The notes below the pieces were generated by a model that saw only the letters and a program-made list of their open reading frames with translations, did no database searches and was not told the DNA's origin. From IMG/VR virus record IMGVR_UViG_3300045988_160394, positions 192,001 through 256,000 of that record: DNA of 64,000 nt. One strand, written 5' to 3'. Source of the stretch: a virus. Position numbers and translations under genes: made by a program. This document shows positions 54,456-63,507 of the stretch, piece after piece; the first letter of the stretch is position 1, and each line of letters begins with the position of its first letter.

Positions 54456-54466
54456 TATAGATTATG

Positions 54467-54493
54467 CCTATATATGCATTACGTATATATAGG
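54467..54493 (+). promoter_or_regulatory. 11-bp AT-rich hairpin CCUAUAUAUGC-AUUAC-GUAUAUAUAGG between early genes
   Basis: Inverted repeat seen directly (one G-U pair). Both arms contain the CCTATATA core of the 14-nt repeat at 53411/53523. It could be a terminator, an operator or a hairpin promoter. Confidence 0.45.
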
Positions 54494-54576
54494 TATAAAT
54501 GTGTATTATTCATACACTATGCACAGAGTATGTGGCATTATGGTCAACGAACCGCCCGCTCAATGGAGGTGCAATT

Positions 54577-56835
54577 ATGTCAAATTTAAACAACGTATTA
54601 GGGAACAACAATAATGTAGAAGGAGGAAGCAATATGAAAAAAGTAGTAATCAAAGCTACAAACAACAATAGCAGAAAGGCTGCTAAAATGAACAAGGAGT
54701 TACATGATGTAATGGCTAAGAGATTTATGAAACAAAATCTATATAACTGGGCTCCAGTTATCAGAATGATTACTATAACAGGAGTAGATGATTTAGAAAA
54801 CTTAGTGTTTGATATGTACAATACTATAGGAGGTAACAGCCCTGTAATGAGAGAGTTCGTTAAAAGAAATGGATCCGTTACAGAAGGGGAGGTAGATGTC
54901 GTTCAAGTATTACCAGATGGAAGAAAAACAACTAGAAAGGTTGTTTGTGGAGAAGTTAAAGGTAAGATGAGACATGATTATGTGGAGGATATATTCCTTA
55001 TCCAATTTAAGGATTTAGAAAAGAATTTTAAAGGTATAACTAAGAAAGAAAAGAAAGAAGCTAGTGAATTATTAGTTGCTTCCGTTCTTGATAATGGATT
55101 ATCCATAGTAACAGATGTTAATGGATATCCTGCTGTTAGAATAAAAGGCCAAGAGATGGAAGGAGATGTAGTTAATAAAACTATTTCACCATTCATATGG
55201 ACACCTTCAAACGAAAGAAATGGTCAAATACTAATGACTAGTATAGACCATAATGAAGCTTGGGACATATTAGAGACTGTTGGTGGAAGAACAGTTAGCA
55301 AGCTATTAGAAAAAGGAGAAGAGATGCCAATAGCTAAATTCAAGAAGTTAGCTTCAAGAATAGGTTTATTCGCAACTCCAGCTATTAAGTTCGGAAAAAT
55401 AGGTACAGCTAAACATGGCCTATTATTAATAAACAGGACCATAGCTGGTGCTGATGATTTTGATAAAATTGCTAAGGAAGTGTTAGACTCTGTAGGAGTT
55501 GAAATAGATGATAACCAATATGATGGAGCTGTTTGGTTCTCAGCAGAATGGTTATCAGATTGTTTCAAAGAAAATGGATTTAACATTTCACCAGCTCAAG
55601 CCATCTGGTTTTCAGCTCAGCTAAGAGTCAATAAGATATATGCTAAAGTATTTGGAGAAGCATTTATTCAAGAGCTAGTTAATGTAATGGCTCACAAATT
55701 AATTGAAAACTTAGTAGAAGGTAGAGATTATACTATCATAGGTAATAGAGACAATATCTCAATGATACTAGATAGTAATGGTGCTAAGTTATTGGATTTA
55801 AACTTAAAAGATAAATGTGATGTTTATCTATTAGATATAGCTAAAGGCACACAATCAGGTACAGCCATACAAATGACAGATAAAATGGCTGTAAAAGATA
55901 AAGAAGCTACTTGCAACTTCTTATACAAAAGAGGTATAGAAGAATGTCACAATTATGTAAATGCTATAGGTGATACAACTAAATCATTAGTAGAAGATGA
56001 TATAAATGTATCAGAGTACTTAATAAATGTTGCAAAACATAATGGAGGAGCAATTGCTTCTAAAGTATTCTCTGATCAATATATCGTATCAGGTATATTA
56101 AGAGATGCAACTAAGAAACATGAAGCTGCTTATAGAAGAGGTAGAGTAGAATTAAACTCACTATTCCAAAGAGCTTTATTTGATAATACTTATGTATTTA
56201 CTAGTGGTAAATTAGACTCAGTATTAAGAGTTGATAGTAGAGGTGCTATAGAATGCTATTCAACTGATGTTTTAGAATTAAATAGAGAAGTAATAGATGC
56301 TATAGAAAATGATAATACATTAAATGATTATGAGAAGGATATGAAATTAAGAGAAGTATTATCTGCTTGTATTATTAAATACCCTACTCCGGGTACAGAG
56401 GAAATAGAACTTGTAGTCTTCTTAACAGAGAAACAAATAAATAGAAGACTACAAGGTTATGTGAAATCAGGTATGATAACTAAAGAAGAAGCTTTAGTTC
56501 TATATAAATATTTTGTATACTCATCATACGGTACAATAAAAATAGCTGCTGATAATAGTGTAAAACACAAATTAGCAGGATTTGATACAGATTACGACGG
56601 ATTCGCAGTCGTATTCGAAAAAGAATTGGTCACTATAATAGAAGGAGTGTATGTTGAAAGAACTGAATCATTCCAAGAATCAACAGGTTCAATAGCTACA
56701 CATGGTGGTGTTACTCCATTTATTGATTGTGGACATGATGCTAAGAACTATATAGAGCTAAATAATAAAAATGTTAATATGAAAGATAAATCAGTACAGG
56801 ACGAAATAAGTATTTGGAATAACTTATTCGAGTAG
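54577..56835 (+). CDS. single-subunit two-barrel RNA polymerase (YonO / QDE-1 / crAss gp66-like class), about 752 aa
   Basis: Beta-like motif FGKIGTAKHG (about 55390-55419; compare GDKxAGRHGNKG). Beta-prime/RdRP-like motif KYPTPGTEEIELVVF...KLAGFDTDYDGFAVVFEKEL (DTDYD at 56584-56598; compare NADFDGD / DxDGD). Start chosen at the ATG with GGAGGTG 5 nt upstream; an alternative is ATG 54634 after GAAGGAGGA. TAG stop. All 7 Trp codons are TGG. Confidence 0.75.
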   Translation: MSNLNNVLGNNNNVEGGSNMKKVVIKATNNNSRKAAKMNKELHDVMAKRFMKQNLYNWAPVIRMITITGVDDLENLVFDMYNTIGGNSPVMREFVKRNGSVTEGEVDVVQVLPDGRKTTRKVVCGEVKGKMRHDYVEDIFLIQFKDLEKNFKGITKKEKKEASELLVASVLDNGLSIVTDVNGYPAVRIKGQEMEGDVVNKTISPFIWTPSNERNGQILMTSIDHNEAWDILETVGGRTVSKLLEKGEEMPIAKFKKLASRIGLFATPAIKFGKIGTAKHGLLLINRTIAGADDFDKIAKEVLDSVGVEIDDNQYDGAVWFSAEWLSDCFKENGFNISPAQAIWFSAQLRVNKIYAKVFGEAFIQELVNVMAHKLIENLVEGRDYTIIGNRDNISMILDSNGAKLLDLNLKDKCDVYLLDIAKGTQSGTAIQMTDKMAVKDKEATCNFLYKRGIEECHNYVNAIGDTTKSLVEDDINVSEYLINVAKHNGGAIASKVFSDQYIVSGILRDATKKHEAAYRRGRVELNSLFQRALFDNTYVFTSGKLDSVLRVDSRGAIECYSTDVLELNREVIDAIENDNTLNDYEKDMKLREVLSACIIKYPTPGTEEIELVVFLTEKQINRRLQGYVKSGMITKEEALVLYKYFVYSSYGTIKIAADNSVKHKLAGFDTDYDGFAVVFEKELVTIIEGVYVERTESFQESTGSIATHGGVTPFIDCGHDAKNYIELNNKNVNMKDKSVQDEISIWNNLFE

Positions 56836-56864
56836 TATTGATTGAGTAATTGTGTAATAGGTTC

Positions 56865-56891
56865 GGTGAGTGTATACCTTTAAAACTCACC
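56865..56891 (+). terminator. stem-loop after the RNAP gene (GGUGAGU/ACUCACC, 7 bp)
   Basis: Perfect 7-bp inverted repeat with a 13-nt loop, followed by AUUUAAAUU. Confidence 0.4.
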
Positions 56892-56967
56892 ATTTAAATT
56901 AAAATATAAAAATAAAAGATAAAAAATTAAGGAAATCTTCAAAGAGTGAAGATATTAGGAGGAAACA

Positions 56968-58818
56968 ATGATGAAAATATTATTAAACAACAACAACAAT
57001 GGAGCAAATACTTTAATGGAGGCTGTTTCAAACGAAATGATGAAAATAACAGAAGCATCTAAGTTTAATGTTGCTAATGGTGTAGCAGGATTATATAACA
57101 GTGAAAAGAGAATAGATAAGAGAATGTTAGATTATTTAACAAAAGTAGATACTAGAAAGCTAGATAACATACAAAGAGCTTTCGCAGTAACATCTTTTGC
57201 GACAGGTTCAATGGTAGGTATAACTACTATTGGTATAGAAGCAGCTTTAACTTTAGCTACTTCAACTTATCAATATTTAGATAAAGATGGGAAGGTAAAT
57301 GCTAAGAAAGTTGAAAGAGTTGTTAAGAACATAGGTGAAAAGCCAGAAGCTGGATATAGATATGTATCAGTGTTTAATTACAATGTAAACAAGGCTTTAG
57401 CTATATCTAAGTTCAGCAGAGCTTCAATATTTATAAGAGTATCTGCTCATGAAATAAAAGAGTTCCAAAAGAGAATAAGAAAGATTGATATGACAGCTAT
57501 CCAACCAGAAGATCTTGTTACAATAGCATATGACATGGATATCATAGGTAGAGCTCTTCAAGAGTTATCTATAGACGTTACTAAGGATAAATCAAAAGAT
57601 ATTGGTTATGATATCAATTCATTAATCAATATGACTAATAAAACAAAGTCTAACATTATTAAGAATACAGTTGTTAAAAACAACATAGAAGATATAATAT
57701 CAGAAAAGATATTTAAAGGAACAGTTTCTAAAAAATACTCAATGGAAGCTATAATAGATGGTAAACCAATGAGTGAAGTAGATGTTAATGATAAAGATGA
57801 ATTAAATAGTGCTTACATCGATAATTTAGGTGGAGATTGTAAAGACGCTATAAATGCTGGTTACATGAAAGGATTCGAGCCTATTGTTGAGTTATTAAAA
57901 GTAAGCAATAATGATGCTTACCAAGTATTCAAGAACAGAGTAGTAACAGCTTCTCAAAACTCTAACCAAAAGGATGTTATTATGAATCAAATAATAACTG
58001 CTGCTAGAGTTGCTATGGATATCATTAATAATCTATATGGTAAGAAGCAATATGACAATACTATAACAAGCAGCTATATCAAAGAAGTTGCTGCTAAATT
58101 AAGAAATGCTATATACACTGTAGGAGCTAAATATGGAGTAGATCCAGTTAACACAGTTAAGATAGCTATGTCAGCTCCATTTGCTAAAATAGTTAACGGA
58201 GAATTAAAAGTAAAAGAAAGACCAACTAGCTTAAGAGCTATATTAGACATCTTCCCAAAAGAATTTGTAGTAGAATATGTATGTAATCCATATGATACAG
58301 AACAAAGCAAAAGAGAAGTAGCTGAATCAGCTTGTTACTTAACTGTTACATTCTCTGATTATGATTTATGCTTAGGAGATGAATTAGATTTCGAAGATAG
58401 TTTATCTATGACTGAGTATGGTATGGTTTCAATTAAAGAAAAATTCTCAGGTAAAGCTGTTGTTACAGAAGAAGGATTAAAAGCTGTTGTTGATATATAC
58501 GCATTTGAATATACTGATGCTGTATTCTTAAGTGAAATATATACAAATAACGAACAAAGTTTTAATGCTCCATTTGTACAACCAGTTTGCTTTACAAAAA
58601 ATAGTGATGAATCTAATATAGAAACATCAATAGAAATGAACGCTATAAGAGAGAAAATAGACACTTGCTTAGACGCAGGTACTAACGGTGTTCTATTATG
58701 TGTAAAAACAAAAGAGGGGAACTTATCAAAGATAGGTAGATTAGCTTTCCCTTATCAAGGAAAAATTAGAATAAAAGATTATATAATAAATACATCTTGT
58801 GGAGTTGTATTATTATAA
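56968..58818 (+). CDS. hypothetical early protein, 616 aa (contains no Trp)
   Basis: Intact ORF with AGGAGG 5 nt upstream and a TAA stop. It lies immediately downstream of the RNAP gene, so an accessory role is possible but unsupported. Confidence 0.7.
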   Translation: MMKILLNNNNNGANTLMEAVSNEMMKITEASKFNVANGVAGLYNSEKRIDKRMLDYLTKVDTRKLDNIQRAFAVTSFATGSMVGITTIGIEAALTLATSTYQYLDKDGKVNAKKVERVVKNIGEKPEAGYRYVSVFNYNVNKALAISKFSRASIFIRVSAHEIKEFQKRIRKIDMTAIQPEDLVTIAYDMDIIGRALQELSIDVTKDKSKDIGYDINSLINMTNKTKSNIIKNTVVKNNIEDIISEKIFKGTVSKKYSMEAIIDGKPMSEVDVNDKDELNSAYIDNLGGDCKDAINAGYMKGFEPIVELLKVSNNDAYQVFKNRVVTASQNSNQKDVIMNQIITAARVAMDIINNLYGKKQYDNTITSSYIKEVAAKLRNAIYTVGAKYGVDPVNTVKIAMSAPFAKIVNGELKVKERPTSLRAILDIFPKEFVVEYVCNPYDTEQSKREVAESACYLTVTFSDYDLCLGDELDFEDSLSMTEYGMVSIKEKFSGKAVVTEEGLKAVVDIYAFEYTDAVFLSEIYTNNEQSFNAPFVQPVCFTKNSDESNIETSIEMNAIREKIDTCLDAGTNGVLLCVKTKEGNLSKIGRLAFPYQGKIRIKDYIINTSCGVVLL

Positions 58819-58916
58819 GATAAAGATAAGGCATGACTTACATAGTTGTGCCTTTTATTATACTCAAAGATATAAAATAAGAATGCAAAGAAAATAATAA
58901 AGTGAGGTAAAGAAAG

Positions 58917-60080
58917 ATGAAAAAGATAGCAATAGAAATAATGGAAAGACAATTACAAGAAAGAAAGGAAGCTGCAACTAGTATTATAAACAACACAATA
59001 GAAGCATTAAAAGTATTAGGACAAGAAGAGTTATTATCTTCAAATGTAGTAGAAGTAGAGAAAGAAAAAATAGTAGAAGTTAAAGTTCCAGTTGAAGTAG
59101 ATAAGAGTGAATTAGAAGCTTTAAAAGTAAAAAATGCAGAAGCTGAAGCTATTATCAAATCATTAAAGAAAGAATTAGCTAATGAAAAGAGAAAGGCTAC
59201 TAACAGTAACAAGAGAGTAGATAAATTAAAAGAACAAGTTTCTGAATTAAAATCAGATGTTAAAGGTTTATCTAAGATAGCTGATAAAAATAAAGAGCTT
59301 GTAGAAGAGAATAAATACTTAAAAGATATGATTACAAAATTAGAAGCTAAATTAAACATGAAAACAAATGCTGAATTTAAAGTACCAGTGAAGAATAAAG
59401 AAACAGTTAAGAAGCAAACTCCTGTTCAAATTAATAGCGATTTGAAAATTTATTCAAACAATAACATAAGTATATTAGCTCAATATAAAAATGTTATATT
59501 TGAAGCTTCTAAAAGAATGGATGCAATAACCATATATGATCCAAGTATGTACGGTATGAAAGAAGAAATAAAAGCTGCACTAGAATCAGCTAAATTATTT
59601 ACTCAAGCTAGAGATGTAAAAGACCATGACAGAATAGAAACTGAAATAGGTTCATGTCATGCTATATCTAAGACTAAGTATATGGGATTCGTTATGGATA
59701 ACGGTAAAGCTATTTGTTATGTATACGAACCAAGTAAATATGATACAGCTAAAGCTATTTTAATAAACAAAAGATTAAATAACACTAGTATTAAATATGA
59801 ACCAGCTACAGAATCTCAACAAGCTCTTATTAACAATTTAGTAGCTCAACATGTAGCTGCTAATAATAAGAGAATGGAGCAACTTTCTCAAGATGCATAT
59901 ACTGGTTTAGGGTTAGATTTCTTAGATGGAAATAATAATCAACAAACAGTTAGTAATAGTGCTCCTAGTGTTAGCTTAAACTTTACAAAACAACCTGAAC
60001 AAACTGCACCTTCAACTAATAGTCCTGAAGAGGATATGATGGCTGAATTTGCTAGAATGTTAGATGGTTTAAATGCATAA
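58917..60080 (+). CDS. hypothetical protein with an N-terminal coiled coil, 387 aa
   Basis: Intact ORF with RBS GTGAGGT and a TAA stop. The antisense track ORF 58838..59359 is a shadow. Confidence 0.7.
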   Translation: MKKIAIEIMERQLQERKEAATSIINNTIEALKVLGQEELLSSNVVEVEKEKIVEVKVPVEVDKSELEALKVKNAEAEAIIKSLKKELANEKRKATNSNKRVDKLKEQVSELKSDVKGLSKIADKNKELVEENKYLKDMITKLEAKLNMKTNAEFKVPVKNKETVKKQTPVQINSDLKIYSNNNISILAQYKNVIFEASKRMDAITIYDPSMYGMKEEIKAALESAKLFTQARDVKDHDRIETEIGSCHAISKTKYMGFVMDNGKAICYVYEPSKYDTAKAILINKRLNNTSIKYEPATESQQALINNLVAQHVAANNKRMEQLSQDAYTGLGLDFLDGNNNQQTVSNSAPSVSLNFTKQPEQTAPSTNSPEEDMMAEFARMLDGLNA

Positions 60081-60400
60081 GCGTTACCTTTCCCCTGCGG
60101 GGGTAGTTTCTCACGTTAAGCCCTACGGGTTTGAGTTAAAAGTAACTACCTTCGGTTATCGAGAAATTAGAAATATTTCTTTCTATGACAAGTTAGCTCC
60201 GCTTCGCTACGCTAACTGTTAGAAAGAAGAAAACTCGCTTCGCTCGTAAGAAATAGAGCGTTTTGTGAGTATTCGTGAGAAGAGTGCTTCTCTTTGGTGG
60301 GTAAAACCACCAACGGTTGTACTTAGCTCTACGAGTGCCATAAGAAATCATAAAAGAAATAGTACTTCTTTTTGATTATAAACTAAATCAATTATATTAA
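60081..60400 (+). ncRNA. candidate structured non-coding RNA in a GC-enriched intergenic region (about 320 nt)
   Basis: No ORF here, and the region is visibly more G+C-rich than its flanks. Helices verified by hand: 60092-95/60100-103 (CCCC-UGCG-GGGG); 60177-85/60220-28 (9 bp) enclosing 60192-97/60211-16 (6 bp); 60241-45/60256-60; 60277-82/60287-92; 60296-300/60307-311. A 9-nt repeat CGCTTCGCT occurs at 60200 and 60236. Strand assumed from the flanking genes. Confidence 0.5.
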
Positions 60401-60419
60401 ATTAAAGGAGGTATTCACA

Positions 60420-60902
60420 ATGAATACAAATACAACTATCAAGAAAAGAATATTTACTATGGCTATGAGAGGCAACACTGCTATCTTAACAGACAGTAGT
60501 AATCCTCAATCTACTATCTCATTTAAAGGAGAAAACTTATCTATTATTGGCTTACAACTATTAAATAAGCTATTAGAAAGTATGCCAACTCAAAGATTAA
60601 ACTATAAAGTAGCAGTATTATTACCACATACTGTAGTTATTCCTACATTCGAAAATACTAGAAATGCATGGATTGCTAATGGTAAAACTAAGACTGGTAA
60701 TGATATAGAACCTGCTAAGCTTCATGAAGTTATTAGACTTAATGAGCTATTAAGAGTTAAAGGTCATAACGTAGAAATCTTTGACCAAAGCAAACTAACT
60801 AGTGTAATGTATAAATCATTTACTAGAAAGACATGGGAGCTTATGGATAAGATAGTACCAAAAGCAGAGGCAGAAGATTGCAATGCATTTATGGTTCAAT
60901 AA
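60420..60902 (+). CDS. hypothetical early protein, 160 aa (paralog of 62578..63420)
   Basis: AAGGAGG lies 8 nt upstream. TAA stop. Shares NGKTKTG / TGKTKSG and flanking blocks with 62578..63420. Confidence 0.7.
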   Translation: MNTNTTIKKRIFTMAMRGNTAILTDSSNPQSTISFKGENLSIIGLQLLNKLLESMPTQRLNYKVAVLLPHTVVIPTFENTRNAWIANGKTKTGNDIEPAKLHEVIRLNELLRVKGHNVEIFDQSKLTSVMYKSFTRKTWELMDKIVPKAEAEDCNAFMVQ

Positions 60903-60933
60903 TATTATTATGAGTCAGTGAAATATCTGGCTC

Positions 60934-60992
60934 TTTCTGTCGTGGAAGATACAGTCCACCTGATGATGGCTATTAGGTAGCCGAAACAGAAA
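60934..60992 (+). ncRNA. hammerhead ribozyme, type III topology (HH1); predicted cleavage after C60941
   Basis: Stem III is open: 60934-40 pairs with 60986-92 (7 bp, including A15.1-U16.1 and C15.2-G16.2). GUC triplet at 60939-41. Stem I is GUGG/CCAC with a 10-nt loop. Core CUGAUGA at 60960-66, then one extra U. Stem II is GGCUA-UUAGG-UAGCC with G10.1-C11.1. GAAA at 60983-86. Confidence 0.85.
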
Positions 60993-61018
60993 TATTATTA
61001 CATTATGAGGTGATTGAT

Positions 61019-61441
61019 ATGAAAATATTTATACCAGCTTACGAAGGAATATCTGGATTATATACTGTAGAAGAAATAAGAGAAGGAGAAAACTTCTATT
61101 ATGATAATGGATCTATGGTAAACATATATGACAACTATTTTATTGTTATCAATAACAATGGAATAATCGAGTACGAAAGTGATGAAGGATTATACAGCAT
61201 ATTTGTTATGTGTTCTGATGAAGAAATAAAATTCTTAGAACAATTTACAGATATAGGATCTAAAAAGATTTTAGAGAGAATGTTAGAGCGTAGAATGTAT
61301 TACGCTAATCTTAAAAAATCTGTAGATGGTAAAACATGTCCTGTATGTGGAAAGAAACTATCCGAATCTAATATAGATGCTGGAATAAGAAATCTATTCT
61401 GCAATAATTGTAAGCATAGTGAAACTATTTGCATAGATTAG
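61019..61441 (+). CDS. hypothetical small protein with a C-terminal zinc-ribbon (CPVCG...CNNCKH), 140 aa
   Basis: GAGGTGA lies 5 nt before the ATG at 61019. The final G of its TAG stop is part of the downstream hammerhead. Confidence 0.7.
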   Translation: MKIFIPAYEGISGLYTVEEIREGENFYYDNGSMVNIYDNYFIVINNNGIIEYESDEGLYSIFVMCSDEEIKFLEQFTDIGSKKILERMLERRMYYANLKKSVDGKTCPVCGKKLSESNIDAGIRNLFCNNCKHSETICID

Positions 61442-61501
61442 TCGAAACGGTAGAAATACCGTCGTACAGGGATGGCTTCCTGTGCCTGATGATGACAAGC
61501 C
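61441..61501 (+). ncRNA. hammerhead ribozyme, type II topology with pseudoknot (HH2); predicted cleavage after C61463
   Basis: Order along the sequence: GUC (61441-43, the stem II 3' strand) then GAA (61444-46). Stem III is ACGGUA-GAAA-UACCGU (61447-62). C17 is at 61463. Stem I is GUACAGG/CCUGUGC (61464-70 / 61479-85). CUGAUGA at 61486-92, extra U, then GAC (61494-96), which pairs with GUC. AAGCC (61497-501) pairs with loop-I GGCUU (61474-78). Confidence 0.85.
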
Positions 61502-61535
61502 AAACTATATTTGAATTTAAAGGAGATTGATTGAT

Positions 61536-62093
61536 ATGAAAACAAAATTCACATTAAAAGGATTAGAAATAGGAAACATTAAGATAGGAGATATCGTTGT
61601 TGAAGGCGAATACTTTGTTAAAGAGGCATGGGGTATGAAAAACCTAATTAAAGGAACAGTTGAAGATTTGTTACACAACATGCCAAAATATCTTGATCAA
61701 GTATCTACAATAAACAACAAGTACGAAGAACTATCTAGAAAAGAATTCTTAAAGAAAGTAGACCATATTCGTACTAGAATTAATGGAGCTAAAACTATAG
61801 AAGAATTAGATAGTATCTGTAAATGCTATTACGAAATATGTCCATTTAGTATGCATAGTGAAATAGATGCTCTTCATAACCAAAGATATCATGAGTTAAG
61901 AAGATATTCTGATGATGAAATTAAAGAGCTAAAAAAAGAAATAGAGTCTTCAGGTACAATTACAGGTATTGCAAGACTTATCAATATTGTTAAGAGTGAA
62001 GTTATTCCTGATAAATATAGAGACGAATTGTTAGCTATGGTTGACAGGAAACACTCAGAAATATTATTTAAATATACAACAAGTATGAATTAG
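61536..62093 (+). CDS. hypothetical small protein, 185 aa
   Basis: AGGAG lies 10 nt before the ATG at 61536, in the conserved leader AAAGGAGATTGATTGATATG. The TAG stop abuts HH3. Confidence 0.7.
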   Translation: MKTKFTLKGLEIGNIKIGDIVVEGEYFVKEAWGMKNLIKGTVEDLLHNMPKYLDQVSTINNKYEELSRKEFLKKVDHIRTRINGAKTIEELDSICKCYYEICPFSMHSEIDALHNQRYHELRRYSDDEIKELKKEIESSGTITGIARLINIVKSEVIPDKYRDELLAMVDRKHSEILFKYTTSMN

Positions 62094-62158
62094 TCGAAAC
62101 GGTATAGAAATATGCCGTCGTGTAGAGATAGCCTACTACACCTGATGATGACAGGCTA
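62093..62158 (+). ncRNA. hammerhead ribozyme, type II topology with pseudoknot (HH3); predicted cleavage after C62119
   Basis: Same architecture as HH2, with compensatory changes. Stem III is ACGGUAUA-GAAA-UAUGCCGU (8 bp). Stem I is GUGUAG/CUACAC. CUGAUGA at 62142-48, extra U, GAC at 62150-52. AGGCUA (62153-58) pairs with loop-I UAGCCU (62129-34). Confidence 0.85.
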
Positions 62159-62191
62159 AATAATATTTTAATTTAAAGGAGATTGATTAAT

Positions 62192-62452
62192 ATGACAAAT
62201 TGGAAAATTACAAAAATAACAACAGGAGTAGCAACTGAAGAAGAGGTAAAAGGATGGGAAGAAATAGAAAATGATGACATCTGTCCTGTATGTGGATCAA
62301 AAATGATTGATGATGAAGAAGAACAATTATTACAACATACTGAATGTCCTATATGTGGTTACTTTGAAAACATCTACGGTAATGCTATAGATTTCTATGG
62401 TAAAGAATGTTTCGAAGAAAAGAAAAAAGAAATAGGTCTTTTAAATGAATAA
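62192..62452 (+). CDS. hypothetical small zinc-ribbon protein (CPVCG...CPICG), 86 aa
   Basis: Leader AAAGGAGATTGATTAATATG. TAA stop, followed by a short hairpin. Confidence 0.7.
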   Translation: MTNWKITKITTGVATEEEVKGWEEIENDDICPVCGSKMIDDEEEQLLQHTECPICGYFENIYGNAIDFYGKECFEEKKKEIGLLNE

Positions 62453-62455
62453 TTA

Positions 62456-62476
62456 GGGAGTTCTCTCCCTTCTTCT
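62456..62476 (+). terminator. short hairpin GGGAG-UUCU-CUCCC followed by UUCUUCU
   Basis: Seen directly, 3 nt after the TAA. A weak terminator candidate. Confidence 0.4.
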
Positions 62477-62577
62477 AATGTAGCCAATGACGGTCACAAG
62501 CCCGTATAAGAAATACAGAGTGGAAGAAAATAATATTATGGGTTAAGCTTCCCTAAAAAGCATAGGAGGAAACAATT

Positions 62578-63420
62578 ATGAAAAATGTAGTATTAGTATT
62601 CAAAGGAAATCACGCTTTAGCATTAGACAATGCTGGAACAGTTATTAAGAAGACTTCAACTGGTAGCTTTTTAGCTAACTTAGAAACTTTAGCAGAAGTT
62701 CTTAACACTATCCCTGTAGGAGATGTAGCTCCAGAAGTTACAACTATTCATATCCCTGACTTTATTCAAGGTATAGCTTCAGGTACAGCTTTAGATTATA
62801 TTAGAACTGGTAAGACTAAATCTGGTACACAATTAACTGGTCAAGAAATGCAAGCTTTTAAAGATGTGTATAAGATGATAGCAGAAAGAATCTATAACGT
62901 TAGATTAAGCTTAGCTAAGTTCATACCAAAGACTAATACAGAGTTAATAGCTTTAAGAACAAACGCTTATAATGCTTTAACTAATTATGTTGCAAGTACT
63001 GGTGGAATGGTAATGGGAGGAATGGCTCCAGCTTCACAAGTAATTGACCCTGATAAAGCTTTAAGAGAAGCATTAGATGCTCAAATCATAGAAGCTATTA
63101 ATAAGGGAGATATGGATAAGATAATGCAATTAAAAGCTATGAGAGATACATTAAAGCAACCAACTATGGTTCAAGGTACTGCTCCTGTAGCTCAACCAAC
63201 TAATAGTTATGTGCCTACACCAAACTTTGGAATGGAAAGCACTACAGCTCCAACAGAAAATAATACTGCTGTTGCACAAGATAGTAATAACCAACCAATA
63301 GCTACACCTGAAGAAACTCAACAACAAGCTCAAGCTCCAGTAGAAAATGCAGGTACTGATGTTAGTTTCACTAATACAACTACAACTGATGCAAGTAACA
63401 TCAACTGGGCTAATGTTTAA
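62578..63420 (+). CDS. hypothetical early protein, 280 aa (paralog of 60420..60902, with a Q/T/P-rich tail)
   Basis: AGGAGGAA lies 6 nt upstream. TAA stop followed by a terminator. Confidence 0.7.
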   Translation: MKNVVLVFKGNHALALDNAGTVIKKTSTGSFLANLETLAEVLNTIPVGDVAPEVTTIHIPDFIQGIASGTALDYIRTGKTKSGTQLTGQEMQAFKDVYKMIAERIYNVRLSLAKFIPKTNTELIALRTNAYNALTNYVASTGGMVMGGMAPASQVIDPDKALREALDAQIIEAINKGDMDKIMQLKAMRDTLKQPTMVQGTAPVAQPTNSYVPTPNFGMESTTAPTENNTAVAQDSNNQPIATPEETQQQAQAPVENAGTDVSFTNTTTTDASNINWANV

Positions 63421-63433
63421 TTAATAGCTAATA

Positions 63434-63465
63434 AAGCCTCTATTAATATAGGGGCTTCTTTATAT
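63434..63465 (+). terminator. rho-independent terminator (AAGCCUCU/AGGGGCUU, 8 bp, then a U-rich tail)
   Basis: 8-bp stem with one G-U pair and an 8-nt loop, followed by CUUUAUAUUAU. Confidence 0.65.
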
Positions 63466-63507
63466 TATCAAAAATAAAATTATAAGAAGAAAAAGGAGAC
63501 GATTGAA

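What the first reader, a model, noticed from the sequence alone, without database searches (positions are those of the whole stretch)
61441..62158. Two type-II hammerhead ribozymes with a covarying pseudoknot, each starting inside the stop codon of the upstream gene
HH2 (61441-61501) and HH3 (62093-62158) contain every invariant hammerhead position: CUGAUGA, GAA, A15.1-U16.1, C15.2-G16.2, the GUC cleavage triplet and G10.1-C11.1.

The two copies differ by compensatory changes in all helices:
- Stem I: GUACAGG/CCUGUGC versus GUGUAG/CUACAC.
- Stem III: 6 bp versus 8 bp, both capped by GAAA.
- Loop-I to 3'-tail pseudoknot: GGCUU/AAGCC versus UAGCCU/AGGCUA.

This is strong comparative evidence for a functional fold. 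Both share an extra U after A9.

The last G of the TAG stop codon (61441 and 62093) is the outer base of the 3-bp stem II. A terminating ribosome would therefore sit on the ribozyme.

Inference: cleavage at 61463/61464 and 62119/62120 cuts the early polycistronic RNA into monocistronic pieces. The upstream piece would end in the stem III hairpin with a cyclic phosphate. The downstream piece would begin with a 5'-OH at the stem I hairpin. Translation of the upstream ORF could modulate cleavage.
Basis: partly seen in the sequence, partly recalled or inferred. Interest (0 to 1): 0.8.

Follow-up and report, generated by a model that had tools for sequence, protein, structure and literature searches.

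The report
Hammerhead ribozymes between jumbo-phage genes
Two real type II hammerhead self-cleaving RNAs sit between small genes of an uncultured jumbo phage, each starting at the G of the upstream TAG stop codon; this kind of ribozyme and its placement between phage genes have been known since 2011, so it is a good new example rather than a new kind of element.

Summary
61441-61502 and 62093-62158 (+) are complete type II hammerheads with a loop I/3'-tail pseudoknot, an extra U after A9, and a 3-bp stem II whose first G is the last base of the upstream TAG stop.

- **Model support.** A covariance model built only from 16 unrelated viral contigs scores them at 67.6 and 71.3 bits; the next best hit in the window is 9.7 bits. 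Rfam RF02276 passes the first copy (40.4 bits, threshold 37) and misses the second.
- **Conservation.** Related phages on 196-264 kb contigs keep the ribozymes at the same gene junctions with compensatory changes, although the flanking protein is only 40-56% identical.
- **Neighbours.** The copies belong to a five-gene unit (60420-63420) in which all four junctions carry a self-cleaving motif: type III hammerhead, two type II hammerheads and a twister-P1-like motif.
- **Stop-codon contact is family-wide.** Of 114 unique viral copies with an upstream ORF, 20 overlap a TAG and 32 abut a stop.
- **Prior knowledge.** Type II pseudoknot hammerheads flanking single phage genes, and the proposal that they cut long transcripts into gene-length mRNAs, were published by Perreault et al. 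in 2011.

Verdict: new member of a known kind. The processing function is plausible but untested. Gating of cleavage by the ribosome is speculative.

The parts
60420..60902 (+). First gene of the ribozyme-punctuated unit (160 aa, unknown function, TAA stop).
   Evidence: ORF list. No Pfam or PHROGs hit. Orthologs of 160 aa occupy the same position in L120-L129.
60912..60933 (+). Conserved hairpin GAGUCAG-UGAAAUAU-CUGGCUC directly 5' of HH1. It would lie near the 3' end of the upstream cleavage product and is terminator-like together with the following U-rich strand.
   Evidence: Terminator-like hit. Appears in the MFE fold. The stem covaries in L121 (GGGGUUGG/CUGACCCC) and L128, read by eye.
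60934..60992 (+). HH1, a type III hammerhead, also with an extra U after A9. C17 is at 60941, so predicted cleavage is at 60941/60942.
   Evidence: Rfam RF00008 scores 30.4 bits, E 2.6e-4, below the gathering score of 48.5. Four distinct orthologs show 97% paired cells and 5 pairs changed on both sides; 3/500 shuffles reach this. The MFE fold gives the three-way junction.
61019..61441 (+). Gene B, about 140 aa, with a C-terminal CxxC...CxxC zinc-ribbon-like motif. Its TAG stop at 61439-61441 shares its G with HH2.
   Evidence: Present only in the window, L127 and L128.
61441..61502 (+). HH2, a type II hammerhead with a pseudoknot. Stem II is 61441-43/61494-96. Stem III hairpin is 61447-61462. 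C17 is at 61463. Stem I hairpin is 61464-61485. Core is 61486-92 plus U61493. The pseudoknot tail 61497-61502 pairs with loop 61473-61478.
   Evidence: RF02276 at 40.4 bits, gathering score 37. R1 scores 67.6 bits. Orthologs in L127 and L128.
61536..62093 (+). Gene C, 185 aa, unknown function. Its TAG stop at 62091-62093 shares its G with HH3.
   Evidence: Eight homologs at 40-95% identity.
62093..62158 (+). HH3, a type II hammerhead with a pseudoknot. Stem II is 62093-95/62150-52. The 8-bp stem III hairpin is 62099-62118. C17 is at 62119. Stem I hairpin is 62120-62141. Core is 62142-48 plus U62149. The pseudoknot tail 62153-58 pairs with loop 62129-34.
   Evidence: R1 scores 71.3 bits. No Rfam hit. 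Orthologs in L120, L121, L124, L127, L129 and L130 carry compensatory changes.
62192..62452 (+). Gene D, 86 aa, zinc-ribbon-like and weakly similar to the C-terminus of gene B. TAA stop.
62455..62470 (+). Hairpin AGGGAG-UUCU-CUCCCU between the stop codon of gene D and the twister motif.
   Evidence: The stem is kept while the loops differ in L121 and L124.
62472..62526 (+). Twister-P1-like self-cleaving motif with P1, P2 and P4 but no P3. Predicted cleavage is in the UAA after P1, about 62476/62477. The site is assigned from memory of the family.
   Evidence: RF03160 scores 49.1 bits, E 7e-8, below the gathering score of 67.2. It sits at the same junction in L121-L124, L126 and L130. P1 covaries in L124 (CUUU/AAAG against CUUC/GAAG). 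CAC/GUG replaces the consensus CCC/GGG.
62578..63420 (+). Gene E, 280 aa. Its N-terminal part is weakly similar to the 160-aa gene.
63434..63457 (+). Terminator-like hairpin with a T-rich tail; the likely 3' end of the unit.

Best explanation
HH2 and HH3 are active-type, pseudoknot-stabilised type II hammerhead ribozymes transcribed as part of a multi-gene phage RNA covering roughly 60.4-63.4 kb on the + strand. A type III hammerhead (60934-60992) and a twister-like motif (62472-62526) occupy the other two junctions, so every gene junction of the five-gene unit carries a self-cleaving motif.

**Cleavage and products**
- Each hammerhead cleaves 3' of C17 (61463/4 and 62119/20).
- Only the 3-bp stem II holds the two products together, so they should separate at once.
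- The upstream mRNA keeps its stop codon plus 22-26 nt and ends in the stem III hairpin with a 2',3'-cyclic phosphate.
- The downstream mRNA starts with a 5'-OH at the first paired base of the stem I hairpin, locked by the pseudoknot. A 39-nt A/U-rich spacer with the ribosome-binding site follows.
- The likely result is a set of single-gene mRNAs with structured, exonuclease-resistant ends. Their stability and translation would be uncoupled from their neighbours.

**What is shown and what is inferred**
- Shown here: the motifs, their statistical significance, covariation, syntenic conservation and the junction anatomy.
- From the literature: members of this class cleave in vitro and in vivo.
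- Inferred: co-transcription of the five genes, cleavage in this phage, and the effect on mRNA fate.
For: - **Motif and core:**
- **Covariation of stems I and III and the pseudoknot:** (16 unrelated viral copies: covariation score 0.744 against 0.164 for shuffles, 0/500 reach it; 4 of 6 pseudoknot pairs changed on both sides; 9 distinct copies within the phage clade, 100% paired).
- **Selection on the RNA:** HH3 orthologs are nearly invariant apart from compensatory changes, while the adjacent protein is 40-56% identical. The only core change, in L120, is at N7, the one core position that is free to vary.
- **Interchangeability:** in L120 a hammerhead sits directly before the 272-aa gene, where the window, L121, L124 and L126 have a twister. 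This suggests cleavage matters, not the particular sequence.
- **Junction anatomy:** all four junctions have a motif. Terminator-like hairpins flank the unit at 60090-60103 and 63434-63457. A hairpin precedes each cleavage site.
- **Family-wide context:** the pattern occurs in at least 119 IMG/VR contigs, often 2-6 copies within a few kb. Of 130 unique copies, 114 have a co-directional ORF ending upstream (within 60 nt) or up to 12 nt into the ribozyme. For 114 copies a start codon with a ribosome-binding site follows at a median of 23 nt.
- **Literature:**
  - Type II pseudoknot hammerheads, pseudoknot mutants and rescue.
  - Arrays flanking single prophage genes.
  - Cleavage of ~2-kb native transcripts in vitro and of the A. 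tumefaciens array in E. coli (PMC3088659).
  - Three type II hammerheads near phage-like genes cleave in D. vulgaris cells (PMC8782182).
Against: - No RNA data exist for this phage, so transcription units, promoters and timing are unknown. The sigma-70-like promoter scan is at chance level (61 found, 61.6 expected).
- HH3 is precisely absent in one lineage (L125/L126). No ribozyme follows the 136-aa gene of L121. A ribozyme at a given junction is therefore dispensable.
- The extra U after A9 is not in the Rfam consensus, and its effect on rate was not tested. Rfam's own model does not recognise HH3.
- In Firmicutes, which are probable hosts given the capsid's relatives, a 5'-OH end can target an RNA to RNase J1, as with glmS (from memory). 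Stabilisation is therefore not the only possible outcome.
Confidence: 0.62

Rival explanations
1. Ribosome-gated ribozyme. The stop codon lies inside stem II, so a terminating ribosome covers the 5' strand of stem II, G12-A14 and the start of stem III. The ribozyme can then fold and cut only when the upstream ORF is free of ribosomes. Cleavage would thus report or time the translation of the upstream gene. This could coexist with the processing role.
For: - Overlap is confirmed at both sites and in the orthologs of L120, L121, L127, L129 and L130.
- Family-wide, 20 of 114 copies overlap a TAG, 32 abut a stop and 43 have the stop 1-5 nt upstream. Random positions give 0.7%, 0.6% and 3%.
- TAG is used almost only where it overlaps.
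- The size of the ribosome footprint downstream of the A site is established knowledge.
Against: - The same pattern follows from tight packing of phage genes. The ribozyme fills the stop-to-RBS gap, with the downstream start a median of 23 nt after it.
- The ribozyme has its own preference for a purine at -1 and A at -2. This holds even when the stop lies further upstream (53/60 and 44/60). An A-G at the boundary is therefore there anyway, and only a T is needed to make TAG.
- In L124 the gene ends in TAA and the UAG follows it unused.
- The other two ribozymes of the unit sit 31 nt (HH1) and 19 nt (twister) beyond their stops, each behind a hairpin that starts 9 nt or 2 nt after the stop.
- No kinetic data exist.
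Confidence: 0.2
2. Destabilising or shut-off element. Cleavage removes the protective 5' triphosphate or 3' end and hands the products to host RNases (for example RNase J1 acting on 5'-OH ends, as for glmS). This would limit expression of these genes rather than stabilise single-gene mRNAs.
For: - The capsid is 37-52% identical to those of jumbo myoviruses of Bacillus and Moorella, so a Firmicute host with RNase J is plausible.
- The glmS precedent is from memory.
- The NAR 2019 review states that the bacterial functions are 'largely elusive' (PMC6765202).
Against: Every product end is structured. The downstream product begins at a paired base of stem I with no single-stranded 5' overhang. Every upstream product ends in or just after a conserved hairpin. 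This is the opposite of what a degradation entry site would need.
Confidence: 0.12
3. Cassette-boundary or selfish module. The hammerhead plus the shared A/T-rich spacer and RBS is a repeated ~100-nt unit. Its main evolutionary role would be to mediate gain, loss and exchange of small gene cassettes by recombination, or it spreads as an insertion. RNA cleavage would be secondary.
For: - The HH2 and HH3 downstream spacers are near-identical, and both place the ATG 39 nt after GAC.
- Relatives differ by whole cassettes at exactly these boundaries:
  - gene B plus HH2 is present only in the window, L127 and L128;
  - L127 has an extra 46-aa gene plus a fourth hammerhead;
  - the zinc-ribbon gene plus twister is missing in L120, with the join in the shared AAATAA..ATATT stretch;
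  - HH3 is precisely absent in L125/L126, and no hammerhead follows the 136-aa gene of L121.
Against: - Recombination needs only sequence repeats. It does not explain preservation of every catalytic nucleotide or strictly compensatory substitutions in the stems and pseudoknot.
- Ribozymes of three unrelated architectures occupy equivalent junctions.
Confidence: 0.1
4. Chance resemblance or decayed, inactive copies.
For: - Rfam reports nothing at gathering thresholds on the whole window and never reports HH3.
- The core carries an inserted U.
Against: - R1 scores of 67.6 and 71.3 bits against a background maximum of 9.7 bits.
- Syntenic conservation with compensatory changes.
- The extra-U form recurs in at least 119 viral contigs. 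It coexists with U-less copies that have the same GUC/GAC stem II.
Confidence: 0.02

Closest known systems
Type II hammerhead ribozymes with a loop I/3'-tail pseudoknot (Perreault et al. 2011, PMC3088659; Rfam RF02276)
   Same: - Same topology: stems I and III capped, stem II open and only 2-3 bp.
- Same core.
- Same 5-6 bp pseudoknot between loop I and the nucleotides right after stem II.
- Same setting between phage or prophage genes.
- HH2 passes the Rfam threshold.
   Different: - One extra U lies between A9 and G10.1.
- HH3 and its orthologs are not recognised by RF02276.
- The host genome is an uncultured, TGA-recoded jumbo myovirus.
Multi-hammerhead arrays flanking single genes in prophages (Clostridium scindens, Azorhizobium caulinodans, Agrobacterium tumefaciens ardA; PMC3088659)
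   Same: Several ribozymes within a few kb, each in a gene junction. The proposed role is processing long phage transcripts to gene-length mRNAs. Activity was shown in vitro and in E. coli.
   Different: Here the array mixes three architectures (type III hammerhead, type II hammerhead, twister-P1-like) and covers every junction of a five-gene unit. The 2011 paper does not mention stop codons (0 occurrences).
Association of twister with hammerhead ribozymes in bacterial and phage gene neighbourhoods (Roth et al. 2014 and Weinberg et al. 2015, recalled from memory; summarised in PMC6765202 and PMC8782182)
   Same: Different self-cleaving classes occur close together and in equivalent gene contexts. 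In this phage clade a hammerhead and a twister occupy the same junction in different relatives.
   Different: The twister here lacks P3 and scores below Rfam's gathering threshold (49.1 against 67.2).
CChMVd (+) hammerhead with an extra residue between A9 and G10.1 (De la Pena & Flores 2001, J Biol Chem 276:34586; title seen in the reference list of PMC2632901; content recalled from memory)
   Same: A natural, active hammerhead tolerates one inserted nucleotide at the same core position.
   Different: That one is a viroid type III hammerhead with an inserted A. Here the insert is a U, in phage type II and type III hammerheads.
HHphage of haloviruses HF1/HF2 (PMC3088659)
   Same: A hammerhead a few nucleotides upstream of a start codon within an early polycistronic phage transcript. 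The mapped 5' end lies within 3 nt of the cleavage site.
   Different: That ribozyme is a core-insertion variant in an archaeal virus. It has no stop-codon overlap and is not part of an array.
glmS ribozyme with RNase J1, and 5'-terminal stem-loop stabilisers in Bacillus mRNAs (from memory)
   Same: They show how a ribozyme-made 5'-OH end, or a 5'-terminal hairpin, decides mRNA fate in Firmicutes.
   Different: Different ribozyme class and metabolite control. Relevant only by analogy for the fate of the products.
Theta (HDV-like) ribozymes of stop-codon-recoded gut phages (PMC10879173)
   Same: Small self-cleaving ribozymes in phages that switch genetic code.
   Different: Those process suppressor tRNAs. 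Here there are no tRNAs in the window, and the ribozymes lie between protein genes of the block that is not recoded.

Membership tests
Hammerhead ribozyme (class) | Conserved core: C3 U4 G5 A6 N7 G8 A9, G12 A13 A14, A15.1-U16.1, H17. | tested here: met
   Read directly in both copies and aligned by R1 and RF02276. One deviation: an extra U between A9 and G10.1.
Hammerhead ribozyme (class) | Three helices around the core, with pairs adjacent to the core (10.1-11.1, 1.1-2.1, 15.1-16.1), supported by covariation. | tested here: met
   The adjacent pairs are G10.1-C11.1, G1.1-C2.1 and A15.1-U16.1. Stems I and III covary (10 of 12 pairs changed on both sides). Within the clade 7 of 14 stem I and III pairs changed on both sides and 100% of cells are paired. 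Stem II (GUC/GAC) is invariant, so it is uninformative.
Hammerhead ribozyme (class) | Mg-dependent self-cleavage 3' of position 17. | not testable with these tools
   Needs transcription and cleavage assays. Class members with the same architecture cleave in vitro and in vivo (PMC3088659, PMC8782182).
Type II hammerhead, pseudoknot subclass | Stems I and III closed by loops, stem II open, in the order 5'-II-III-I-II-3'. | tested here: met
Type II hammerhead, pseudoknot subclass | Pseudoknot of at least 4 bp between loop I and the nucleotides immediately 3' of stem II. | tested here: met
   HH2 has (U)GGCUU/AAGCC(A) and HH3 has UAGCCU/AGGCUA. Pseudoknot pairs covary (4 of 6 pairs; 2 of 6 pairs). 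A pseudoknot of at least 5 bp occurs in 63/132 copies, against 21.5 for shuffled tails (maximum 32 in 200 shuffles).
Rfam RF02276 Hammerhead_II | Score at or above the gathering threshold (37 bits). | tested here: inconclusive
   HH2 scores 40.4 bits, which meets it, but only when the fast filters are relaxed. HH3 is not reported at E<=10 even on 96 nt, and neither are its orthologs.
Rfam RF00008 Hammerhead_3 (for the neighbour HH1) | Score at or above the gathering threshold (48.5 bits); type III topology. | tested here: not met
   30.4 bits, E 2.6e-4. The topology and core are nevertheless complete, and 5 pairs covary among 4 orthologs. It works like a type III hammerhead but fails Rfam's cut-off.
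Rfam RF03160 twister-P1 (for the neighbour at 62472-62526) | Score at or above the gathering threshold (67.2 bits); P1, P2 and P4 with conserved loops and pseudoknots. | tested here: not met
   49.1 bits, E 7e-8; P3 is missing. P1, P2, P4 and the conserved AAGCC/GAG..G segments are present. P1 covaries in L124, and CAC/GUG replaces CCC/GGG. It is a probable twister, but membership by the curated threshold is not met.

The most novel reading that the evidence does not exclude
Placing the stop codon at or inside the 5' strand of stem II is a selected, family-wide design, not just tight packing. It makes these type II hammerheads ribosome-gated: a terminating or queued ribosome melts stem II and the G12-A14 core, so each junction is cut only when translation of the upstream gene pauses or ends. 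Because the cut lies 22-26 nt past the stop, the released mRNA still terminates normally and is not treated as a non-stop message. Phage hammerhead arrays would then be translation-sensing processing switches.
Probability: 0.18. Interest if true: 0.65.

Novelty: new member of a known kind. Interest (0 to 1): 0.33.

Why it matters
The biological role of the thousands of hammerhead and twister ribozymes in phages and prophages is still described as largely elusive (PMC6765202).

This locus is a compact natural test case. It is a five-gene unit with a ribozyme at every junction. Three ribozyme architectures are used interchangeably. Relatives naturally lack individual ribozymes or whole cassettes.

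The family-wide statistics obtained here give concrete, testable constraints on how such ribozymes are embedded in mRNAs:
- 95 of 114 copies have the upstream stop within 8 nt, and 52 overlap or abut it.
- The start codon follows a median of 23 nt downstream.

The analysis also shows that curated Rfam thresholds miss conserved copies, namely HH3, HH1 and the twister. That matters for annotating phage genomes. The analysis does not reveal a new kind of element.

Tried and rejected
- **Rfam gathering scan of the whole window:** 0 hits. This was a filter effect, not absence.
- **blastn of 58900-63500 against 50,697 phage records:** no match.
- **The search for related loci with the 280-aa protein in IMG/VR:** no relatives.
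- **PHROGs and Pfam on the flanking proteins:** nothing significant, so gene functions give no clue.
- **Sigma-70 promoter scan:** at chance level and uninformative.
- **HH1 upstream hairpin loop pairing with HH1 loop I (UAUCU/AGAUA):** considered. L120 and L121 do not keep the complementarity, so the idea was dropped.
- **L121's 136-aa gene as the ortholog of window gene B that had lost HH2:** BLASTP shows no homology. It is a different cassette.
- **The 340-nt noncoding stretch 60081-60419 as another known ribozyme:** no Rfam family at E<=10.
- **Theta-ribozyme paper:** holds nothing on hammerheads.
- **Frequency of the extra U:** could not be estimated fairly, because the loci were collected with a pattern that requires it. 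Only its optional nature is shown.
Full report
**1. The observation**

- HH2 runs from G61441 to about A61502:
  - GUC-GAA, a 6-bp stem III capped by GAAA, G16.2-U16.1-C17 with C17 at 61463, and a 7-bp stem I (GUACAGG/CCUGUGC);
  - CUGAUGA at 61486-92, an extra U, GAC, then AAGCC(A), which is complementary to (U)GGCUU in loop I.
- HH3 runs from G62093 to A62158. It has an 8-bp stem III with one G-U pair, C17 at 62119, a 6-bp stem I (GUGUAG/CUACAC), the same core with the extra U, and the tail AGGCUA pairing with UAGCCU in loop I.
- The first G of each ribozyme is the third base of the in-frame TAG that ends ORFs 61019-61441 and 61536-62093.
- The stated cleavage positions are correct.

**2. 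Is it more than chance?**

- Rfam at gathering thresholds on the whole window returns nothing.
- In E-value mode RF02276 (Hammerhead_II) hits 61440-61505 at 40.4 bits, above its threshold of 37.
- HH3 is never reported, even when only 96 nt are searched at E<=10.
- I therefore built an independent model:
  - Sixteen diverse copies, none from the window, were aligned and turned into model R1.
  - With filters off, R1 finds exactly two sites in the 64-kb window: 62091-62162 at 71.3 bits (E 6e-17) and 61439-61506 at 67.6 bits (E 5e-16). The next hit scores 9.7 bits.
  - The invariant blocks match by construction, but the stems and the loop/tail consensus do not.
- MFE folding of each copy gives stems III and I as drawn, with z-scores of -2.8 and -3.8.

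**3. Comparative evidence**

Across the 16 unrelated viral copies, the full structure including the pseudoknot has 95.8% paired cells. The covariation score is 0.744 against 0.164 for shuffles (0/500 reach it). Slid controls stay at or below 0.13. Four of six pseudoknot pairs change on both sides. These copies were pre-selected for a pseudoknot, which inflates the paired percentage but not the covariation.

In all 132 unique copies, a contiguous pseudoknot of at least 5 bp occurs in 63, against 21.5 (maximum 32) when tails are shuffled.

The gene between the two hammerheads has homologs at 40-95% identity. They lie on contigs of up to 196 and 264 kb with the same gene order.

HH3 is present at the same junction in L120, L121, L124, L127, L129 and L130. 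The substitutions are compensatory:
- A-U to G-C in stem III of L121;
- a largely rewritten but fully paired stem III, and two changed stem I pairs, in L124;
- A-U to G-C in stem I of L127.

The only core change, in L120, is U7 to A, at the one position that is free to vary.

Nine distinct clade copies give 100% of 202 cells paired and 9 pairs with changes on both sides. No shuffle out of 500 reaches this, and slid controls give 0-2. The RNA is thus under much stronger constraint than the neighbouring protein.

**4. Surroundings**

The window is a phage. Portal, major head protein, tail sheath and terminase lie on the minus strand. The capsid is 37-52% identical to those of jumbo myoviruses of Moorella and Bacillus.

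The two hammerheads are part of a run of small + strand genes of unknown function. The order is:
- gene 60420-60902;
- hairpin 60912-33;
- type III hammerhead 60934-60992 (RF00008 at 30.4 bits, E 2.6e-4, below threshold). Five pairs covary among four orthologs;
- gene 61019-61441;
- HH2;
- gene 61536-62093;
- HH3;
- gene 62192-62452;
- hairpin 62455-70;
- twister-P1-like motif 62472-62526 (49.1 bits, E 7e-8, below the threshold of 67.2, no P3). It is conserved in L121-L124, L126 and L130, with P1 covariation in L124;
- gene 62578-63420;
- terminator-like hairpin 63434-57.

All four junctions of this five-gene unit therefore carry a self-cleaving motif. In each case a hairpin lies just 5' of the predicted cut and a structured element starts at it.

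In L120 a hammerhead sits directly before the gene that is preceded by the twister in other relatives. This argues that cleavage is what is selected, not a particular sequence.

**5. The stop-codon contact is a family trait**

- Of the 130 unique viral copies, 114 have a co-directional ORF of at least 40 codons ending upstream (within 60 nt) or up to 12 nt into the ribozyme.
- The stop codon overlaps the first G as TAG in 20, abuts it in 32, and lies 1-5 nt upstream in 43.
- Random positions in the same contigs give 0.7%, 0.6% and 3%.
- TAG is used almost only in the overlapping class.
- A start codon with a ribosome-binding site follows a median of 23 nt after stem II.
- When the stop lies further upstream, position -1 is still a purine in 53 of 60 copies and position -2 is A in 44 of 60.
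- In L124 the gene ends in TAA and the UAG follows unused.

The simplest reading is that the ribozyme fills the gap between stop and ribosome-binding site. Its own A/G at -1 plus G1 then make a TAG easy to form. A role for the terminating ribosome in gating cleavage is possible but not required by the data.

**6. Mechanism**

*Shown:* intact catalytic cores, covarying helices and pseudoknot, syntenic conservation, and the junction anatomy.

*From the literature:*
- This architecture cleaves fast at physiological Mg, and the pseudoknot is needed (mutants and compensatory rescue).
- Arrays cut ~2-kb native transcripts, and one array cleaves in E. coli (PMC3088659).
- Type II copies near phage-like genes cleave in D. 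vulgaris cells (PMC8782182).

*Inferred:*
- The five genes are co-transcribed.
- Each junction is cut.
- The 3-bp stem II lets the products part.
- The upstream mRNA ends 22-26 nt past its stop in the stem III hairpin with a cyclic phosphate. That tail is long enough for normal termination.
- The downstream mRNA begins with a 5'-OH at a paired base of stem I, with the pseudoknot intact, 39 nt before its ATG.
- Structured ends on both products point to stabilisation and insulation of single-gene mRNAs rather than decay. The opposite outcome (RNase J attack on 5'-OH ends, as for glmS) cannot be excluded.

*Against an essential role at any one junction:* HH3 is precisely missing in L125/L126, and no ribozyme follows the 136-aa gene of L121.

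**7. Comparison with what is known**

Perreault et al. 2011 described all of the following:
- type II hammerheads and the loop I/3'-tail pseudoknot, with mutational proof;
- their frequent association with prophages;
- arrays flanking single genes;
- the proposal that long phage transcripts are processed into operon- or gene-length mRNAs.

The 2019 review still calls the bacterial roles largely elusive. That the twister was found near hammerheads is recalled from memory of Roth 2014 and Weinberg 2015. An inserted nucleotide between A9 and G10.1 has a precedent in CChMVd (reference seen, details from memory). In the viral loci, copies with and without the U share the same GUC/GAC stem II.

Neither the 2011 paper, the cyPhyRNA-seq paper nor the 2019 review contains the phrase 'stop codon'. 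The quantified stop-codon contact may therefore be a small new descriptive point.

**8. Verdict**

- The identification is supported.
- The processing model is plausible and already published for the class.
- The translation-coupling idea is unproven.
- This is a new member of a known kind, and interest is moderate to low.

The most useful by-products are:
- the all-junction, three-architecture array with natural presence/absence variants;
- the family-wide spacing statistics;
- the demonstration that Rfam thresholds miss three of the four motifs.

Noticed in passing
window 1-52000 (minus strand) compared with 54499-63420 (plus strand): TGA appears to be a sense codon in the late and structural genes.
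- Read through TGA, the ORFs fuse into open frames of 2950, 2995, 2122 and 1007 codons holding 5-13 in-frame TGAs.
- Under code 11, 28 of 58 ORFs 'end' in TGA.
- The ribozyme-bearing + strand block has 0 in-frame TGA in about 2585 codons.

This is the pattern of a stop-codon-recoded phage with standard-code early genes. No tRNA gene lies in the window.
   Followed up: partly
window 49423-46400 (-): With TGA read as Trp, this frame encodes a large terminase interrupted by an intein. Pfam hits are Intein_splicing at residues 83-486, LAGLIDADG_3 at 282-363 and Terminase_6N at 487-628. The intein domain matches run across TGA codons.
   Followed up: partly
window 62472-62526 (+), with hairpin 62455-62470: A twister-P1-like self-cleaving motif lacking P3. 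It scores below Rfam's gathering threshold (49.1 against 67.2 bits, E 7e-8). It is conserved at the same junction in L121-L124, L126 and L130, with a compensatory P1 change in L124.
   Followed up: partly
window 60934-60992 (+), with hairpin 60912-60933: A type III hammerhead, also with an extra U after A9, preceded by a covarying hairpin with the conserved loop UGAAAUAU. The hairpin plus the U-rich stem III strand looks like an intrinsic terminator. Termination and ribozyme cleavage would therefore give nearly the same 3' end.
   Followed up: partly
window 60081-60419 (+): About 340 nt without an ORF, richer in G+C. Sequence islands are invariant across relatives whose proteins are only 40-56% identical (for example AAGCCCTACGGGTTTG, GCTCCGCTTCGCTACGC and CTCTACGAGTGCCATA). 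Predicted hairpins are present. No Rfam family matches. It could be a structured RNA or a regulatory region.
   Followed up: partly
L120, L121, L125-L128 compared with window 60900-62580: Relatives differ by whole gene-plus-ribozyme cassettes at the ribozyme boundaries. Individual hammerheads are precise 60-66 nt presence/absence modules between TAG and a shared A/T-rich spacer. L127 has a fourth type II copy after a 46-aa gene.
   Followed up: partly
window 54462-54498: A 16-bp perfect A/T-rich inverted repeat (TTATGCCTATATATGC...GTATATATAGGTATAA) ends at the start codon of the 778-aa gene, near the switch between the minus- and plus-strand gene blocks. It produced a spurious mir-1277 hit.
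   Followed up: no
window 60420-60902 with 62578-63420; 61019-61441 with 62192-62452: There is weak paralogy within the unit. The 160-aa and 280-aa proteins share an N-terminal region including a GKTK(T/S)G motif (E 0.004). The two small proteins share a CPVCG...C..C zinc-ribbon-like segment (E 2e-4).
   Followed up: no
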